Under the pieces are notes generated by a model. It was not told where the DNA came from and searched no databases. It was given only the letters and a program-made list of their open reading frames with translations. A stretch of DNA of 64,000 bases from assembly GCF_009914755.1 (NCBI RefSeq), contig NC_060946.1. The stretch is one strand, 5' to 3'. Each line of letters starts with the position of its first letter. The first letter of the stretch is position 1. This document shows positions 1,890 through 14,857 of the stretch, piece after piece. The translations under genes were made by a program, and so were the position numbers. This stretch comes from the human T2T-CHM13v2.0 reference genome, Homo sapiens.

Positions 1890-2690
1890 GCATTTAACAA
1901 ATATGTTAATCCTCAAACAGTTATTGGGCAGCTGAACATACAGCAATAAAAATAACATAATTTTTATGTGTACAATATTTATGGAATAAACTACTGGAAC
2001 CAATAAATACTTTAGTTAATAACATGACCAAGAACAGAAATTGTATACACTATACAGCATAGTAATGGAATAATGAGTGATTAAAGTTATTAATACTAGG
2101 TAGAAAATGAAGGTATCTTTGAGAGCAGAACTCAAGGAAGCAAGCAATTCGCCTTATGAGGAAAGAGTCACCTGTGGATAAAGGAGAAAATGAAAAATTT
2201 ACAAGTCAAGACTTTTTGAGCAAAAACAAAAATATGACTATTAGTCACCAATTCAGTACAGTGAAAAGAAAGTTGAAGAGATATCTTGGAAGTAAACCAT
2301 GTTGTGGAAGAGCATGTAGGGTTTTGATAATCTTGGGATGATTCTGAATTAATTTTAAATGCGATAGGAATATATGAGATAATTTCACCAGAGAATAACA
2401 TGATTGTGTTTGCATTTCAAAGGGGTGTATCTCGTGCACTGTGAAGAATAAATAGGTTATGTAAGCAAATAAATTTGGAGGCTATTGTAATCCACAGAAA
2501 ATAGGTAGTGACTTAGGTGAGAATGCTGTGAGTATGAGTGGTATTAGTGGTGAGAAGTCGTCAGGCCATGGATGTATATCAGAGGACTGGCCAAGAGAAC
2601 TGCAGCTAAATTGGAGTGTAGGGAGTGAAATGGAGAACTCAAAGATGACTCTCAGCACTGGAAGGTGACAGCTGTCACTGAAGCAGGCTG
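1890..2690 (-). mobile_element. Degenerate L2 fragments
   Basis: Purine-rich antisense-L2-like motifs (gaggctattgtaatcc, gtggtgagaagt, aaattggagtgtaggg). Boundaries are approximate. Confidence 0.55.
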
Positions 2691-5050
2691 ATCCCTCTTA
2701 TTAAGAGAGTTACTTGGGAATGGTAAGATCAAACCTTCTCACTTTCAAATTTATGAAAAATATTGTTTTCCGAACGAATGACTTTGGGATCAGAAAGCCA
2801 TCATTCTCATTGATGGTTCCACGACTACATGGGCTCACACTCCCAAGAGCAAAAGTAAATCATCACAAAGGTGCTTCCTGATAATTCTAGAGAATGGAGA
2901 ATTACTGTAACATCTTTCTGATTTTAGGAGAGGTAGCAGTTCCCTTTTTAGCCTAAACGCTATTTTTCTTTAAAGCTCAGCCAAGAGACTCCATTATAAT
3001 TTTCAAATGTGTGTAACTCAAATTCTCATATGAAATACCACTATGCTTAGTCAAAACGTTTTCCCCATGTACAACTCTATCTTGTCATTGCAATCATTTT
3101 CACAAAAGTAACTGCAGCTCACAGACCCTAAAAGTGGAAAATCCAGGGTAAGTTATCTGATCTAGTTAGTTTTGAAGACAGGATCTAGAGATTATTTAAT
3201 ATGAAATAGGTCACCTGAAATGAAGTGTTTACTGAAAACAGCTTGGATCAACCCAGTTTTCTACCACTGAACCATGGATTTGGTTTCAAAAACACAACAA
3301 CTCTGGAGAATATCGGCTGCTTCCAACTGTGTTGAAGGTGTTAAAGAAAAGAGCATAAAATTATAAATGATCATCTGAGGCCTTTATAGTCTCTGCTCAA
3401 GAGACTAGCGTCTTCCTTTCTTAAGGAAACATACAAATATCTTAATAATTGGGCAAAATCTAACTATCAGAGAGATAATTTTATCTTGAAGATTGTTAAA
3501 TTATAATGGTGATTCACTACCTTGCCACGTCTCTGACTCAAAAATTAGATCTTTGTTTAGGAATCAATGGTACTCTGCAACTTGGAAATAGGAAGATTTT
3601 AGAAGACTCAAACATTGACTTTCTTGTGTGCAAAAAAAAGACGTATTGAGATAAGACAAGTCTTTCCTTGCAAGGATACCTCTAATGCTCACACACCACC
3701 TCCCCTAACGTTAATATAGCTTCCAGGCCACTAACCGGTGTCAGAGAGCAGCCTATGCAACTACAGATTCAAAAGATGTCAAACACAGGGTCAAGCCTAG
3801 AATAAGAAGTCTTAGCTAATTAAGTATGCTTTTTCCCCCAAATTCATATTAACAAAAACTTGGATATGTCAGAGAATGCATTCTAAGTTCACTCAACCTA
3901 GGAGGGAGAAACATAATTTTAAATTAAGAACTGAAGCATTCTTGTCCTAACAAAAAGCAAGGAAAACGAAATATCACACCACAGGAGGGATTTCACAAAT
4001 TAGTGTCAACATCAAAACCTTAAAATAGGCAAGGAGAATGCAGATTCACAATGAACTCTTGTACTTGTTTTGTTCAGAGAAGAGATGGTTCTGAGAGAAT
4101 GACAGTGAATTAACCCCAGCTGGTTTAGTTGGTGCTTTCATTTGCTGCTTCTGATAAACTCCTTTAGCTAGAATAAATTTATGCAGATTTTGGCATGTGG
4201 TATTAGAGATGGTTATTAATTTTTTCCTCTTATTTGCATTGTTCAATGTAGTAAATACTAGCTGTATATGGCTACTTCAATTCAAATTAATTACAATGAA
4301 ATATACTTAAATATTGAATTTTTTAGTCACTGTTGGTTCATTATTGAATATCTTCAGCTAAGATTTCCCATCTCAATACACTAAGAGGTGGCTTAACTGG
4401 TCGTCCACAAATATTGAAGCTGTTGTTAACTCCTGATATATCCTCTGCAAATAGAATATTCATGAGCCTCCTCCTGAAACCAGCAGCCTACAGATAATTT
4501 TATAAATTGGATACAAGTTGGAAATCTATACTCTAAGTTTTTGAAATATTAGGTTCCCAGGGAAGAAAATCAAATTCATAAGATACTTTAGGACAATTTA
4601 ACTCAAGATGTTCAAAACTGAAATGACATATTCTACAACATGTGATAAAACCACCCCCTAACAACTTAAAGCAAAACAGGGATTGACCTTAAAGACCTGC
4701 CTTTTCCTCATGCCCCAGCCAATCAGTTTTCAAATCTTGCATTTTATTTGAAAGGTCCTTATCCCCCTAGTCTCCTGTTTCTAGACTTGGCACATATTTG
4801 TAACCTCCATCTACTGACTTTCCTCTCTTCAAATAGTATCTATGCCTGCCAAATGTGAACATACAAAAAATCAGAATGTGCCATTCTGATTTAAACTGCT
4901 TATTAGTTAATACCCTCAAGATAACATCTGGGTTCTTAGATGCACTGAGTCAAGCCTACTTACATCTTTTTTTGTCTTCGGCTGCACTTTTCCTATCACA
5001 TCACACTCCAGCAATGCCAAGCTGTGCGGGCCTTCTACCCCATCTCCACT

Positions 5051-6747
<1,697 letters not shown>

Positions 6748-7724
6748 TAAGGATTTCTTCTCTCTATTCTGCATTTGATAGCATTTGCTTTGGGGCTTAT
6801 TTTTTTAAACGTGTCCAGCCTCATTTCTATCTGGTTAGATTAAAACAAACTTCTTTCCTTTAACTTGCAAAAACAGAGATGAACATCTTCATATTGTTAA
6901 TGTGGACTTCCATTCACAGCTTAACAATTTTATGGGCAGAAGAGTACAATGGGCTCAACTATCCAGGCTTTAGGAGTTATTTTAATCTTTAAAGAGCAAT
7001 AGGTACAAGTAAAAGTACATACATAAAGTAGGTATTTAATATTTAATTTTTATTCTCATATGCATGAAAAGGGTGTTCCAAAAAAAGAGAAGTCCATGGC
7101 ATGTCTTTATGGTTAATCTTACTTTATTTTTTGGTTCATCTACCATGCTTCTTACAAGTTACTTGTTTTTTCTTTCATGAAAATTTTTTTTAAATGAATT
7201 GATTTTACTTTTCATCAGCACAACTGTTGACTAATACCAAAGTTAGCTAGAAGGCTATGGTTTTTATATTTATAGAATGGCAGAGGCAGCATTCAGATAA
7301 TACATCATAGTAACTTGGCATTTATGAAATATTAGTTTTCCATAAACATCAACTCAGAGGAAGGTTTTTTTTTTAATTATAATAACATTTTGAAAACCAC
7401 CTGTCCATTAAAATGTTACTAAAATATGTATTGGAACTGGTGTTTTAGATGCCAGTCCTTCCTGAAGAGTGTTTTGAGATTTTTTTCAAATACTGCCTCA
7501 GTTCTATATAAAATAGTAAAAATTCTGCCTTTTAAATTGACTACTGGATGTAGGTAAGAAGTTAAGTAAATATTACATAAAAATAAATTTGCAAAAGTAA
7601 TTTACTCAAGGATTATTTACACTTTGATGAGTGGATCTGGATATTTTGATACTAAGTGAAAGTGGTTCCCCTATAATTATAAGGGAACAAATATCTGCAA
7701 GTAGTAGTTAAAAGAATGTATATA

Positions 7725-8712: not shown

Positions 8713-10154
8713 AATAACCTGGATTACAGTAACTTTTCATGGAGTGTTTATTAGTACTTAAACTGTCATTGTCATCAAAATTCTGTTTTTACATATGAAC
8801 TTAGAAATGTCATTGTAACCTTCTCAAATCATTTGGTCATTTAAAATGGAGAGGTTGAGTTAGGTGTTTCTTACATTTCTCTTTAGCTCTGATACTATGA
8901 GTCTGAAGTTAAGTAATGCAAAGTTGGTAATTAAATCTTCCCCTTTCGTGATGTAGGAGAAAGGGAGAAAGAAAACTTCTGGGTAACTGGATTCCCTTTC
9001 AAGTTTATTAGAACTGTAATTATGTAGCATTTTGAATAAAGCATTCATTCTGGAAATCATTAAATTTACTTTTCTTAACTCCGTATTTTGTCAACTGTGG
9101 AAAAATTGGGATTTAGGAATAACCTCTGATTTAAAATTCCACCTGTTAATCATTTAAATTGTAGTCTTGTAATTTCCTAACTTTGGTCTTGAAGGTGTTT
9201 ATCATTCTTATGCGCTATTATACTGTATTAAATATTTATGCAACATAAAATGTATAGTTTTAACTATTGTACATGTTTACATATGAAAGGTATAGTTTTG
9301 AACTTATCATTATTCAACTTGCTAGTTTTGCCTCACTATTCATTTTTGACACATCCATATTAGTACATGCAACTCAAGTTTATTCTTTTGAGCTACTGTA
9401 TATCATTCAAATGTATGAATAAATAACCTTGCTTTGGTGGACATTTAAGTATTTTCATGTGTCAGTATGAAAAGCAGTTTCAAAATGAACATTCAAATAT
9501 ACATTGTCATATATAATATTTGTATATATGAAAGTCCTGTGGGTTATATATCTGAAATCAAAATTACAAGTGTTTTGTAACTTCTATAATTAATTTTACT
9601 CTCAATTTTAAGTAAACAAGATTAGTTGTTGCACATGATGAATCTCTTTATTCAGTTAATTACTGCCATAATTAGAATACCACTTAAAACTTGATAATAT
9701 TTTCAAGGGTATTTATGCTAAACTTACATAAGTGTGTTGAAAAGTCCTTTTGTATATATGTAGAGATTACATGGTATGTTAAATTCATCAATTTGCCTAA
9801 ATATCAAGTTATACTTAAGTAGTGTCCATACACAATTTTTTTGCTTGACTGAGCTCCAGTATGTATATTGGGAGTACTTTTTAACATTCATAGGTTAAAT
9901 GGCCTGTTTTGGAAAATGATATTAAAAATGTAATTCAGATGAATGCTTAGAATAAAGATTAAAGATGAATGAGCTTTCATATTAATCATCAATATGACAA
10001 TCCTAAAGGGAAGCATGATTTTCAAATGTACCTCCTTGTAAGCAGGATAATTCAGAAATGCACAGTGCATATTAGATATGGGATTTGAGTCGTAGTATAT
10101 TTCTCTAAGAATGTAATTTATTGTACTTTCACATCCACCCCACTGAATATGCAG

Positions 10155-10276
10155 AGTTTAAGATGCAATGGCCAGAAGACATGAAAGTGTCACTAGAAGG
10201 ATGTGGACGTGGGCTCCAGGACTGTTGATGATGACTGTGGTCTTTTGGGGTCATCAGGGGAATGGACAAGGCCAAG
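10155..10276 (+). pseudogene. ROBO2: Duplicated first coding exon of the ROBO2a isoform (signal-peptide exon); orphan exon with flanking intronic DNA
   Basis: Acceptor cag| at 10154 and donor |gtaagt at 10277. The ATG at 10168 gives MARRHESVTRRMWTWAPGLLMMTVVFWGHQGNGQGQ versus recalled ROBO2a MARRHERVTRRMWTWAPGLLMMTVVFWGHQGNGQGQ. It has 109 coding nt (phase 1). No Ig-domain exons follow, and the block ends in satellite at 22.66 kb. Confidence 0.92.
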
Positions 10277-10354
10277 GTAAGTGCAAGGATGTTCTAATTC
10301 TTTGAGAGTTGGATGCAAATTTCACTTTATGATGAAATTATGTGAGTCTTTGGT

Positions 10355-11793
10355 TTGACGTTTAAGCAATTTGTTGTAATCTTCTGCCAGGTTTTTGTTA
10401 CAGGGTATTGTAATGCCTCTGCACCAGTTAAATTGAAATAGAGTTAGGTGTGAGTAAATGCATCAAAATTGAGGCCATCTTTCCGAAATTGGCTTTTTTC
10501 TGTTGGAATTCATTATATATATATGGAATTCTGTTGGAATTCATATGAATATATATATGAATATATATATGAATATATATATGAATATATATATGAATAT
10601 ATATATGAATATATATATGAATATATATGAATATATATATGAATATATATGAATATATATGAATATATATATGAATATATATATGAATATATATATGAAT
10701 ATATATATGAATATATATGAATATATATATATGAATATATATATGAATATATATGAATATATATATGAATATATATATGAATATATATGAATATATATAT
10801 GAATATATATATGAATATATATATGAATATATATATGAATATATATATGAATATATATGAATATATATATGAATATATATATGAATATATATGAATATAT
10901 ATATGAATATATATATGAATATATATGAATATATATATGAATATATATGAATATATATGAATATATATGAATATATATATGAATATATATATGAATATAT
11001 ATGAATATATATGAATATATATATGAATATATATATGAATATATATGAATATATATGAATATATATATGAATATATATGAATATATATATGAATATATAT
11101 GAATATATATATGAATATACATGAATATATATGAATATATATATGAATATACATGAATATATATGAATATATATATGAATATATATGAATATATATATGA
11201 ATATATATATGAATATATATATGAATATATATATGAATATATATATATGAATATATATATGAATATATATGAATATATATATGAATATATATATGAATAT
11301 ATATGAATATATATATGAATATATATGAATATATATGAATATATATATGAATATATATATATGAATATATATATGAATATATATGAATATATATATGAAT
11401 ATATATATGAATATATATGAATATATATATGAATATATATATGAATATATATATATGAATATATATATTCATATATATATATGAATATATATATATGAAT
11501 ATATATATATGAATATATATATGAATATATATGAATATATATATGAATATATATATGAATATATATGAATATATATATATGAATATATATATATGAATAT
11601 ATATATATATACACCAGATATATATATCACTATTACAGAGAAACAGTTGTCATGCTGCATTTTTCGGAAAGATGGCTTCAATTTTGATGCATTTACTCAC
11701 ACCTAACTATTTCAATTTAACTGGTGTAGAGGCATTACAATACCCTGTAACAAAAACCTGGCGGAAGATTACAACAAATTGCTTAAAAGTCAA
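10355..11793. repeat. Inverted repeat pair (10355-10488 / 11662-11793) enclosing the AT-rich array
   Basis: The right arm is the reverse complement of the left arm with 4 substitutions and one 2-bp indel (aligned by eye). Confidence 0.95.
10545..11611. repeat. AT-rich tandem repeat GA(AT)4-6, ~1.07 kb
   Basis: Continuous gaatatatat(at)(at) units, with one inverted unit at 11467-11472. Confidence 0.97.
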
Positions 11794-11819
11794 TATATAT
11801 ATATGGTATTATGAGGCTA

Positions 11820-11846
11820 CGTGTGTGTGTGTGTGTGTGTGTGTGT
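11820..11846. repeat. (TG)n microsatellite
   Basis: Perfect GT run. Confidence 0.95.
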
Positions 11847-12841
11847 TTTGGGGGGGTGGGTATGCATGTGAGTTTGTGTGTGTGGTATTTTACAAGAACA
11901 CGTAGCATATAAAGTTGTGATTTTGAAGAAAAGTTTTTGGATGTTTGTTTCTTTTCTTTAGGGTTTTTATGTTTTACATTTTAAAATTTCAAGAAGCTAT
12001 TCTTAAAGGATGTGATGTTCTTTAGAAATTAAATGAAAAAACGTGACGTTTCTCATTCTTCTGCCAAGCGTATTTAGGGGAAATTAATGATAGAGTGGAG
12101 CTGCAAGTTTGTGGCATCCTGAAATGTCTGTTGGAGAGTAGAAAAGGGCCATAGATTTTGTAATAAGGCTTTCAATATTGACTTGATCAATAGCTGTATG
12201 GAGTGGTTTGTGCGAAATCTAGTATCTGTGAATGTATTTTGTGATAAGTATTGTATTATTTTTGGAGGTGTGTTGCCTGCTCAGATACAAATTGCAATTC
12301 TGTATTTTATGTGATAAAACATCCTGACACCCCTGAAATTTTTTTTTCCTTTTGGGTCAAGTATATTTGGCATTGATTTTCTGCATTTTCAAGGCTTGAA
12401 ATGAAATCTGTGAGCAGGAAGTTCACAGAGTTTATTTCAAGGGATAGGTATATTTCTAGAGATAAAATTGAAAGCTTGCAGTGTTATTATATAATTGTGA
12501 TGAAGTTGAGCTTTGGTAGTTTGAAGTATCTAATAAAGTTCAACACTTTTTAAAAGATCCTTCAAAAAGGGCAGTTTTCTTGCCATATGTAATATTGTTC
12601 AATGAATTTTTGAAATGAAATAGATATTTTTCAAAACCACAAGTGCATGTGTGCCTTTGTATATGAATAGTTGTATATACATGTAAGCAGATAATACATT
12701 TTGTTAATTAAGATCAGCTTTGATTTTAATTTTTCTTTCATGCCAGAGTTCATATTAGCATTTAATAGAATTCTCATTTTTATTTTTTGTGATAAAACTA
12801 ATGTAAAATATATTTAATACACATAGTATTTTCACCAAAGG

Positions 12842-13160
12842 GCTAAAACAAGAATATGTAGACAGTAGCTATGTTGGATTTCTGTGGCTATAGAGTTGTT
12901 TATTTCTCTGGTAATGTGTAGAGTTATTACAATGCAGCATGACAACTGTTTCTCTGTAATAGTGATCCAACATGACGTGTAGTATTACACATGGTTGCTA
13001 AAACAAGAATATGTAGACAGTAGCTACATTGGGTTTCTGTGGCTACAAGAGTTGTTCATTTCTCTGGTAATGTGTAGAATTACTAAAATGCAGCATGACA
13101 ACTGTTTCTCTGTAATAGTGATCCAACATGACGTGTAGTATTACACAGGGTTGATAAAAC
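12842..13160. repeat. Tandem duplication of ~155 bp (12842-12996 / 12997-13152)
   Basis: Both copies start gctaaaacaagaatatgtagacagtagcta and end gtagtattacaca(t/g)ggtt, followed by a gataaaac microhomology. Confidence 0.95.
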
Positions 13161-14857
13161 CTTCCTCTGACCATCATTTCCAGTAATTGTGGCTTGTTTT
13201 AGATGAGGAATAGGTTATTAGATATTTAAAATATTTGAAAAAAATAGGTATCTTCTCTCTTATTTACCCAAAAAACCCTTTTATTTACTCAGTATTGATT
13301 GCTCAAATATTCTATCCTTCACTGGGGACCATCATTTATTAAAAAATGGCCTGAAATCAATTCCAAGTCTAGCTGCAGTGAAGCTTCTAGTGGGAAATGC
13401 AAGTTATTTGTTTTCTTTCTAAAAGGATAAATTAAAATAGACAATGATTCAAAGAACAAAACAACTTAATAGAAAACATAATGGAATGCTTTGATATTAT
13501 CATTCAGGGAATTTTGCTTCCTTTGTGGTAGCTAGATTAAGTGAAGGAGATTGCTTAGGTGTAATGAGCAAATCTTATAATTGCAAGTATAACCCAAGCT
13601 GCCTATCATCATTTAGATCAATAAGCCTCATTAAATATTAAATATTACGTTTTAACTTTTATGCAATTAAGCAGAATTTAAAAATAAAAGTTTTAAAAAT
13701 TAAAGTTTTTATTACTAAGTATCTTTTAAAATACAAATCTCATAGCTCATTATTATTGTCAAGAAAAGAATACATGAAAATTTATAAATAAGGTTTTCTC
13801 TCTAGTAAGTTTACAGTCTTGCATTAAATATTGGTTATTGGAACCCGCAATGTCCAAGATTATGATTAAGTATCAATGAAGTATGACTTGCAGCAAATAT
13901 GTATGCAAATGTTATAAGATTATTTTCACATTATTTCACATAATTTCTTAAGCGTAATAGTATAAGTAAATTATACTTTCTACACAAGCTCTTCATATAT
14001 ATGAATAGACTATGTTCTAAATGTTTAAGTCATTGGGAAATCCCAATGTTCCTTCCTGAGAAACCGTGTGAGAAATTGTACCTAAGCTAAAAAAATAGAA
14101 GACAAAAATCAATTTAACGAGGAATGTAGATTAATATCATAGTATTGTCTCAACTGTGTGCAACCACTACTTATAAAAAATGATGTAAGAAATGCAGTCT
14201 GAAATCTGAATTCTAAATAACAATGTAGGGCCATTATCCCTCTGGGACCCTTAGGGTCAAAATAAGAGAAAAGGGATGAATGGTGGGTTGGAAGTAAGTC
14301 AATGATCCTTGTCAATTTTTTGTATCTGTCAAGAAAAGCATCTGCTTGAGGACATCCATTTTCCTGCTTCTGAGTTACAGAATAATAGGTGCCTATCCTG
14401 AATGTAACATTCCCTGACACGGACTCTGTGTCTATGCTGCTTAGGTGGTTTGTGCATGACAAAGTGTTTAACATCTGAAAATGGAGACAATCCTTAGAGA
14501 AAGATACATATGAATTTTAAAAGGAAATATACCTACGATAGAAATGAAACAAATAGCATAAATATCTAGCTGTATTTTGTCTTTTTGGTAACTGTTACAA
14601 TATATACATTTTCAAACAACTAAGTTCAGCACTGACTTCGGGAGAATCTAGATAAAACTGAACTGACATATAATAAGCATGGGTATAATTAATAGCACAG
14701 CAGGCAAAACCATGGGGGTGTTTCCTGAGAAAGAGGGACTATAGAGAGGCACCAGAAAACCCAGCTCATTTGCAGGATTCTGGGGAGTGTCAGGAGCAGT
14801 TATTATATTCAGAACTGAGAATTTATTTCTAACTCAGCAACCCGTAGTTCTGACTGA

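What the first reader, a model, noticed from the sequence alone, without database searches (positions are those of the whole stretch)
10355..11806. 1.28-kb composite insertion assembled entirely from locally templated pieces, just downstream of the ROBO2a exon copy
Seen in the sequence: tatatatatatgg occurs at 10514-10526 and again at 11794-11806, and removing one copy plus the DNA between them restores a simple (AT)n site. The insert consists, in order, of: a re-copy of the junction (ttctgttggaattcat 10529-10544 = 10498-10513); a fold-back palindrome attcatatgaat (10539-10550) that could seed the GA(AT)n unit; ~1.07 kb of that unit; a 38-bp inverted copy (11626-11663) of sequence ~1.4 kb downstream (13085-13122); and a 132-bp inverted copy (11662-11793) of upstream 10355-10488. 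The last two pieces join with 0-2 nt of microhomology. Inference: this is a multi-step template-switching scar (Pol theta end joining or MMBIR-like) at a broken (AT)n tract. It created a new VNTR inside an element that looks like TIRs plus TSD but is not a transposon.
Basis: partly seen in the sequence, partly recalled or inferred. Interest (0 to 1): 0.8.

Follow-up and report, generated by a model that had tools for sequence, protein, structure and literature searches.

The report
Template-switch repair scar with new VNTR
A 1.28-kb insertion next to a copied ROBO2 exon on the chromosome 22 short arm is a real, lineage-specific DNA-repair scar built partly from inverted copies of nearby sequence, and an AT-rich tandem repeat has grown inside it; it is a clean example of a known kind of mutation.

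Summary
The segment has six paralogues. Four acrocentric copies (chr22 twice, chr21, chr13) carry the composite with identical junctions. VNTR length varies among them: 510, 1066, 1416 and 1518 bp. The chr3 copy (ROBO2 region) and a chr20 copy have an uninterrupted (TA)n at the same point, so they are empty sites. The inverted arm and the re-copied junction carry 3 of 4 substitutions specific to the acrocentric lineage. The insertion is therefore derived, arose once, and is neither a transposon nor an assembly artefact. The best reading is serial template switching during replicative repair (MMBIR/FoSTeS class) at a (TA)n tract, followed by VNTR growth. Three corrections apply. Only about 190 of 1280 bp are demonstrably templated. 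A 15-nt piece (11611-11625) has no local template. The 13-nt "TSD" may be a (TA)n tract split in two, not a duplication. This is a known kind of event, of moderate to low interest.

The parts
10168..10278 (+). Context: copy of a ROBO2-type first coding exon (MARRHESVTRRMWTWAPGLLMMTVVFWGHQGNGQGQ, then a GT splice donor)
   Evidence: Translation. The ROBO2 isoform assignment is recalled, not tested here.
10355..10488 (+). Segment A: the original upstream sequence that served as template for the inverted arm. It is present in all six paralogues, including the empty ones.
10489..10513 (+). Segment B: 25 nt between A and the (TA)n tract that were not copied in inverted orientation. 10498-10513 is the template of the direct re-copy.
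10514..10526 (+). Left T(AT)5GG: either one copy of a 13-nt duplication, or the left half of a split (TA)n followed by the GG of a templated GGAATTC
10527..10544 (+). Direct re-copy of the junction. It reads either as AA plus 16 nt (10498-10513), or as AATTC (copy of 10507-10511, primed on GG) followed by TGTTGGAATTCAT (copy of 10501-10513, primed on TTC).
   Evidence: Identical in all 4 filled paralogues.
10545..11610 (+). AT-rich VNTR of 1066 bp and 92 units, mostly GA(AT)5 (50 units) and GA(AT)4 (29 units). One unit is in inverted orientation (ATTCAT at 11467-11472).
11611..11625 (+). Orphan 15 nt (ACACCAGATATATAT here; ACACCAGATATGTAT in the other 3 filled copies) with no identifiable local template
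11626..11663 (+). C': inverted copy of sequence that lies about 1.28 kb downstream of the site in the empty allele
   Evidence: 38/38 match
11662..11793 (+). A': inverted copy of segment A
11794..11806 (+). Right T(AT)5GG, continuous with the right flank shared with the chr3 and chr20 copies
13085..13122 (+). Template of C' (distal unit of the 156-bp tandem duplication). The alternative 36-nt template is at 12931-12966.

Best explanation
This is a derived, non-functional mutational scar. A (TA)n microsatellite lies about 235 bp into the intron after the copied ROBO2-type exon. It stalled or broke on the lineage that led to the acrocentric copies of this segmental duplication, after that lineage had split from the chr3 and chr20 copies. 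Repair proceeded by serial template switching of a copying 3' end (MMBIR/FoSTeS class). The inferred order is as follows. First came a short backward slip on the same template, which re-copied 16-20 nt of the junction using GG and TTC microhomology. Next came AT-rich synthesis and 15 nt of unknown origin. Then the 3' end switched to the opposite strand 1.28 kb ahead and copied 38 nt, and switched again on 0-2 nt (TT) to the opposite strand 26-160 bp behind the site and copied 134 nt. Finally it returned into the (TA)n tract. The AT-rich middle then grew by slippage or unequal exchange into a G[A/C/T](AT)n VNTR, which has since diverged in length and unit type among the four copies. Shown here: the insertion is derived, it arose once, the copied pieces and their junctions are as described, and the VNTR is confined to filled alleles. 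Inferred: the pathway, the order of steps, and whether the left re-copy and the VNTR belong to the same event.
For: Whole-genome searches with the left flank (10 matches) and the right flank (21 matches) hit only six loci. In chr3 and chr20 the left flank (to window 10524) and the right flank (from window 11793) abut across a plain TA run of 27 nt and 19 nt. The four filled copies have letter-identical left junctions, and identical C'/A' and A'/(TA)n junction architecture, with point differences only inside the pieces. In the arm alignment, columns 89 and 130 are derived in all acrocentric left arms relative to chr3 and chr20, and all four right arms share them. Column 119 changed only in the left arms and column 67 only in the right arms. 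The re-copied junction carries the acrocentric-specific C (GAATTC, against GAATTG in chr3 and chr20). Flank divergence is 0-1.0% among acrocentric copies, 2.9-3.3% to chr20 and 3.6-4.5% to chr3. Literature (passages read): inverted insertions near their template, flanked by microhomology, are the MMBIR templated-insertion signature (PMC8421209). [quoted passage not shown] This makes the 132-134-nt and 38-nt tracts, one with its template 1.28 kb away, a poor fit to plain TMEJ.
Against: Microhomologies are short (0-3 nt) and are not individually significant. A 15-nt piece and the whole VNTR have no demonstrable template. No intermediate allele exists in this genome, so a single event cannot be told apart from several. 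The small left-junction pieces (7 and 13 nt, templates within 8-29 nt) look as much like Pol theta products as like MMBIR. The 38-mer is uninformative for timing: its single differences from chr3 and from chr20 are at different sites, each private to that copy. No ape or other human assembly could be examined.
Confidence: 0.62

Rival explanations
1. Polymerase-theta-mediated end joining of a two-ended double-strand break in the (TA)n tract. Repeated cycles of annealing, short synthesis in cis (snap-back) and in trans, and dissociation would have been followed by ligation to the other end.
For: A mix of direct and inverted flank-derived pieces, 0-3-nt microhomologies and an untemplated stretch is what TMEJ scars look like. 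The left-junction pieces are 7 and 13 nt with templates 8-29 nt away. A' could arise by snap-back of the left end on its own strand. The fixed A/G difference in A' (column 67) could be a copying error by an error-prone polymerase.
Against: POLQ inserts are reported as mostly <25 bp (mean about 10 bp) and templated within about 20 bp of the break (PMC5068794 passages). Here the tracts are 132-134 and 38 nt. The 38-nt template lies 1.28 kb from the break, on the strand that resection removes, so copying it needs strand invasion.
Confidence: 0.15
2. Stepwise history. The (TA)n first evolved into an AT-rich minisatellite. The inverted C'+A' block near its right end and the 20-nt re-copy near its left end were then inserted by separate small repair events.
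For: The two T(AT)5 remnants total 22 nt, within the range of the intact tracts in chr20 (19 nt) and chr3 (27 nt), so no target-site duplication is required. The left and right novelties are more than 0.5 kb apart in every filled copy. AT-rich arrays are recurrently unstable, and VNTR length differs in all four copies.
Against: All sub-parts co-occur in all 4 filled copies and none occurs in the 2 empty ones. C' and A' are joined directly to each other and must be one event. A single complex event is more economical.
Confidence: 0.2
3. The filled state is ancestral, and chr3 and chr20 lost the insert by precise deletion between the two TATATATATATGG repeats.
For: 13-nt direct repeats flank the insert and could mediate deletion.
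Against: The right arm and the re-copied junction carry 3 acrocentric-specific derived bases that chr3 and chr20 lack. The arms differ at only 2 fixed sites of 134, whereas the flanks differ by 3-4.5% from chr3 and chr20. Two independent precise deletions, or a deletion at the source locus before duplication, would be needed.
Confidence: 0.02
4. A non-autonomous DNA transposon (TIRs plus TSD), or an assembly artefact.
For: 134-bp inverted arms and flanking 13-nt direct repeats resemble a MITE.
Against: The left arm is present in both empty alleles. The direct repeats do not abut the outer ends of the arms: the left repeat lies 25 nt inside the left arm's inner edge. The arm sequence occurs only at the six paralogous loci. 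Four independently assembled loci share the junctions with different VNTR lengths.
Confidence: 0.01

Closest known systems
MMBIR / FoSTeS templated insertions (MMB-TI signature of Osia et al. 2021, PMC8421209; complex insertions at CNV junctions)
   Same: Inverted copies of nearby sequence are inserted at a break or stall site. Consecutive switches occur at 0-3-nt microhomology, and both inverted pieces are copied from the same strand.
   Different: It is larger and more composite than the signature that paper searches for (templates within 100 bp). One template is 1.28 kb away, a direct re-copy and an untemplated stretch are included, and a kilobase-scale VNTR now sits inside.
Short-range template switches in great-ape genomes (four-point model; Walker et al. 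2021, PMC7954356)
   Same: It creates a new inverted repeat from local sequence, in an AT-rich context. Return behind the departure point makes it look like one large insertion.
   Different: That model describes one excursion (2->3). This needs at least three to four switches, and the fragments are longer.
Polymerase theta templated insertions (van Schendel et al. 2016, PMC5068794)
   Same: Flank-derived inserts in either orientation, minimal microhomology, reiterated priming.
   Different: Tracts of 38 and 132-134 nt compare with a typical size of <25 bp. One template is far beyond the roughly 20 bp next to the break.
Fold-back inverted duplications (Hermetz et al. 2014, PMC3907307)
   Same: Direct and inverted copies are separated by an unduplicated spacer, with 2-nt inverted microhomology at the spacer/inversion junction.
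   Different: The scale is 134 bp rather than Mb. There is no terminal deletion, dicentric chromosome or breakage-fusion-bridge outcome, and synthesis stopped and rejoined locally.
Palindromic AT-rich repeats (PATRR11/22/17/8) and the AT-rich minisatellites of rare fragile sites FRA10B/FRA16B (recalled, not read here)
   Same: An AT-rich core is flanked by less AT-rich inverted ends. As single-stranded DNA it has strong predicted hairpin potential (chr22b copy: -321.6 kcal/mol against -110 for shuffles). Array length varies.
   Different: It is not a near-perfect palindrome. The VNTR halves are only 70-74% complementary, nearly all units point the same way, and about 55 nt on each inner side are unmatched. 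No evidence of breakage or translocation is available.

Membership tests
DNA transposon / MITE | Both terminal inverted repeats arrive with the element, so the empty site lacks them | tested here: not met
   The left arm (10355-10488) is present in the empty chr3 and chr20 alleles.
DNA transposon / MITE | The target-site duplication directly abuts the outer ends of both TIRs | tested here: not met
   The right repeat abuts A'. The left repeat lies 25 nt to the inner side of arm A. The sequence outside arm A (..GTCTTTGGT) is unrelated.
DNA transposon / MITE | Dispersed copies at non-homologous sites | tested here: not met
   All 10 matches and all 21 matches fall in six paralogous loci. The tool warns that repeat counts are lower bounds.
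MMBIR-type templated insertion | The inserted tract is a reverse-complement copy of a nearby template | tested here: met
   A' has its template 26-160 bp from the site, and C' has its template about 1.28 kb from the site in the empty allele.
MMBIR-type templated insertion | Microhomology at the switch junctions | tested here: inconclusive
   Microhomology is GG and TTC at the left re-copy, 0 or 2 nt (TT) at C'/A', and 0-1 nt at A'/(TA)n. These are too short to differ from chance one by one.
MMBIR-type templated insertion | Dependence on break-induced replication factors | not testable with these tools
   This needs genetics in cells.
Pol theta (TMEJ) templated insertion | Short inserts (mostly <25 bp) copied from within about 20 bp of the break | tested here: not met
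   This fails for A' (132-134 nt) and C' (38 nt, template 1.28 kb away). It is met only by the 7- and 13-nt left-junction pieces (criterion from PMC5068794).
PATRR | Near-perfect palindrome of several hundred bp with little or no central spacer (criterion recalled) | tested here: not met
   The best VNTR self-complementarity is 70-74%. Inner flanks of 56 nt (left) and 51 nt (right) are unmatched.
PATRR | AT-rich centre with non-AT-rich ends (criterion recalled) | tested here: met
   The VNTR is 8.5-12.7% G+C and lies between ordinary-composition 134-bp arms.
Fold-back inverted duplication | An unduplicated spacer between the direct and inverted copies | tested here: met
   The spacer is 10489-11661. 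The scale and chromosomal outcome differ from the clinical class.

The most novel reading that the evidence does not exclude
The repair scar did more than leave a footprint: it gave birth to an AT-rich minisatellite. Together with the 134-bp inverted arms, this forms a young PATRR- or fragile-site-like hairpin element. It now sits on three acrocentric short arms (chr13, chr21, chr22 twice), changes length quickly (510-1518 bp among copies that are 1% or less diverged), and could be a recurrent breakage or exchange point between heterologous acrocentric arms.
Probability: 0.1. Interest if true: 0.55.

Novelty: new member of a known kind. Interest (0 to 1): 0.3.

Why it matters
One genome holds both the empty state (chr3, chr20) and four descendants of a single complex templated insertion. 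The scar can therefore be read junction by junction, placed on a lineage, and used to see how fast an AT-rich VNTR diverges among acrocentric short-arm paralogues. It is also a caution for annotation. The structure looks like TIRs plus a TSD but is not a mobile element, and its apparent TSD may only be a split microsatellite. It does not open a new mechanism, and no function is implied.

Tried and rejected
Five lines of work led nowhere or were dropped.

(1) A local template for the 15-nt orphan. All substrings of 9 nt or more with non-AT content were searched on both strands of the six 6.5-7-kb loci and the whole window. Only VNTR-like ATATGTATAT matches and scattered 9-mers elsewhere turned up, so no template was found.

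(2) The 38-mer as a timing marker. It was rejected because its single differences from chr3 and chr20 lie at different, private sites.

(3) The palindrome-seed idea. ATTCATATGAAT is specific to this copy. This does not disprove hairpin priming but removes the specific support.

(4) Literature on this locus. A search for ROBO2 + acrocentric + segmental duplication listed 1 paper, a colorectal cancer survey judged irrelevant from its listing and not read. I therefore found no description of this insertion in that library. Subscription journals and supplements were not covered.

(5) Tool problems. A 20-kb whole-genome query gave no answer and was replaced by two 5-kb queries.

Full report
**Observation**

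I read 10200-12000 and checked each stated repeat by script and by in-window BLAST.
- The 13-mer TATATATATATGG occurs exactly twice in the window, at 10514-10526 and 11794-11806. The 16-mer TTCTGTTGGAATTCAT also occurs exactly twice, at 10498-10513 and 10529-10544. Neither occurred even once in any of 100 dinucleotide shuffles.
- 11626-11663 is a perfect reverse complement of 13085-13122 (38/38, E 1.5e-13).
- 11662-11793 is the reverse complement of 10355-10488 with 4 mismatches and one 2-nt indel (95.5%, E 1e-56).
- Tandem Repeats Finder reports the AT-rich array at 10543-11606 and a 156-bp tandem duplication at 12842-13160. That duplication is why the 38-mer has a second, 36/36 match at 12931-12966.

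Its list omits the 15 nt at 11611-11625.

**Paralogues and empty sites**

The window's own assembly (T2T-CHM13) could be searched. I assume contig numbers equal chromosome numbers; the tool and the hub agree on this for chr22.

The 531-nt left flank gave 10 matches and the 801-nt right-side probe gave 21 matches. All lie in six loci:
- C22:6.458 Mb (this window)
- C22:11.224 Mb
- C21:8.009 Mb
- C13:10.984 Mb
- C20:26.234 Mb
- C3:75.991 Mb

The four acrocentric loci each have a second, inverted match to the arm. C20 and C3 do not.

In C3, window 9000-10524 aligns to locus positions 493-2025 and window 11793-13246 aligns to 2032-3525. In C20 the two alignments meet within the TA tract. Read directly, chr3 has ..GGAATTGATTT(TA)n.. 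with a 27-nt TA run, and chr20 has a 19-nt run, each followed by the shared right flank. These are empty sites.

It was not tested against an annotation.

**One event, derived, on the acrocentric stem**

All four filled copies have the same left junction (..CATTATATATATATGGAATTCTGTTGGAATTCAT..). They also share the same orphan/C', C'/A' and A'/(TA)n junctions.

Ten arms were aligned in 134 columns, 16 of them variable.
- At columns 89 and 130, every acrocentric left arm and every right arm carries a base that differs from both chr3 and chr20.
- At column 119, the right arms keep the chr3/chr20 base and only the left arms have changed.
- At column 67, only the right arms have changed.
- The re-copied junction carries the acrocentric C of GAATTC, where chr3 and chr20 have GAATTG.

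So 3 of the 4 acrocentric-stem substitutions that fall in template segments were already present when the copies were made.

Flank substitution divergence over about 2.5 kb on each side is 0-1.0% among the acrocentric copies, 2.9-3.3% to chr20 and 3.6-4.5% to chr3. The event therefore lies between those nodes. On a recalled human-chimpanzee divergence of about 1.2%, that is very roughly 5-15 million years ago. Sequence exchange among acrocentric arms makes the younger bound soft.

The 38-mer does not help with timing. Its single differences from chr3 and from chr20 are at different, private sites.

**Anatomy, and what is and is not templated**

In window coordinates the pieces run in this order:
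- A: 10355-10488
- B: 10489-10513
- T(AT)5GG: 10514-10526
- re-copy: 10527-10544
- VNTR: 10545-11610
- orphan: 11611-11625
- C': 11626-11663
- A': 11662-11793
- T(AT)5GG: 11794-11806
- right flank

The demonstrably templated DNA is 16-20 + 38 + 132 nt, about 190 of 1280 bp.

The left junction can be read without any filler. GG (10525-10526) matches GG at 10505-10506, and AATTC then copies 10507-10511. Its TTC matches 10498-10500, and TGTTGGAATTCAT then copies 10501-10513.

That reading removes the need for a target-site duplication. The left GG would belong to a templated GGAATTC. The two 11-nt TA runs (22 nt together) are no longer than one intact tract (19 nt in chr20, 27 nt in chr3). A real 13-nt duplication, arising because the copying end had already passed GG before it slipped back, remains equally possible.

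C' and A' overlap by TT if the distal 156-bp unit was the template, or join bluntly if the proximal unit was. A' meets the TA run with 0-1 nt of overlap.

The orphan has no local template.

**The VNTR**

| Copy | VNTR length (bp) | Insert plus one 13-mer (bp) | GA(AT)n units |
|---|---|---|---|
| chr22, this window | 1066 | 1280 | 88 of 92 |
| chr22, second copy | 510 | 726 | 17 of 46 |
| chr21 | 1416 | 1632 | 98 of 121 |
| chr13 | 1518 | 1734 | 104 of 128 |

The rest of the second chr22 array is mostly GC(AT)n and GT(AT)n units.

GA(AT)n units occur in all four copies, so such an array existed in their common ancestor and has diverged since. It is absent from both empty sites. Whether it arose during the repair event or grew afterwards cannot be decided.

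**Mechanism**

Both inverted pieces are complementary to the same strand and are joined directly to each other. They record two consecutive switches of one copying end: first to a site 1.28 kb ahead of the (TA)n tract, then to a site 26-160 bp behind it.

In the four-point framework, a template ahead of the departure point cannot be nascent DNA of the same strand, so an inter-strand switch is needed. A return at or behind the departure point produces what looks like one large insertion. Such events are enriched in AT-rich DNA (passages of PMC7954356).

Inverted insertion near the template, with microhomology at the borders, is the MMBIR templated-insertion signature (passages of PMC8421209).

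Pol theta inserts in the one dataset I read are mostly <25 bp and are templated within about 20 bp of the break (passages of PMC5068794). That fits the tiny left-junction pieces but not the 38- and 132-134-nt tracts.

I therefore favour replicative template switching (0.62) over TMEJ (0.15). A stepwise history remains a serious alternative for the left re-copy and the VNTR (0.2). An abstract seen only in a search listing (PMC11161834) reports replication-dependent mutagenesis at non-B microsatellites, including AT-rich ones. This is consistent with the favoured reading, but I did not read that paper.

**Rejected readings**

- Transposon: the left arm is in the empty alleles, the direct repeats do not flank the arms' outer ends, and the arm sequence is not dispersed.
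- Ancestral insert with deletions at chr3 and chr20: the copies carry acrocentric-derived bases, and the arms differ at only 2 fixed sites.
- Assembly artefact: four loci share the junctions with different array lengths.

**Consequence**

There is no sign of function. As single-stranded DNA, the 885-nt chr22b version folds with the two arms fully paired and the AT core self-paired. Its energy is -321.6 kcal/mol, against -110.2 +/- 3.9 for 20 shuffles. That follows from its construction.

It does mean the scar created a long interrupted hairpin with an AT-rich core. This is reminiscent of PATRRs and of AT-rich fragile-site minisatellites, both recalled rather than read here. However, it fails the near-perfect-palindrome criterion, since the VNTR halves are only 70-74% complementary.

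**Limits**

No ape or other human assemblies, read data or repeat-family library were available. Paper supplements were not consulted. Dating is relative only.

Noticed in passing
window 12842-13160: The copy number of a 156-bp tandem duplication (93% between units) varies among the paralogues. There are two units in chr3, this copy and the second chr22 copy, and one unit in chr20, chr21 and chr13. The unit has therefore been gained or lost more than once.
   Followed up: partly
window ~17503: This chr22 copy lacks about 750-760 bp that the five other paralogues (chr3, chr20, chr21, chr13, second chr22 copy) all have between the two aligned blocks. This is a private deletion in this copy.
   Followed up: no
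window ~6930-7180: This is the left edge of the ROBO2-derived duplicon. chr3 homology starts near 6928 and chr20 homology near 7179. The DNA to the left belongs to a different duplicon with 75-89% matches near the centromeres of many chromosomes (chr2, 7, 9, 10, 14, 15, 16, 17, 21, 22).
   Followed up: no
window 10168-10278: The copied first coding exon is still an open frame ending at a GT donor in all four acrocentric copies, with one or two point differences between them. My anchor string did not match chr3 or chr20, so those copies were not compared.
   Followed up: partly
window 11821-11846: A (GT)13 run lies 15 nt to the right of the insertion site and is also present in the empty chr3 and chr20 alleles. 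The ancestral site was therefore a compound (TA)n...(GT)n microsatellite, a context prone to non-B DNA.
   Followed up: no
window 11467-11472: A single VNTR unit is in inverted orientation (ATTCAT) among 92 same-direction units. The second chr22 copy also has one, but near the opposite end of its array. Its origin is unexplained.
   Followed up: no
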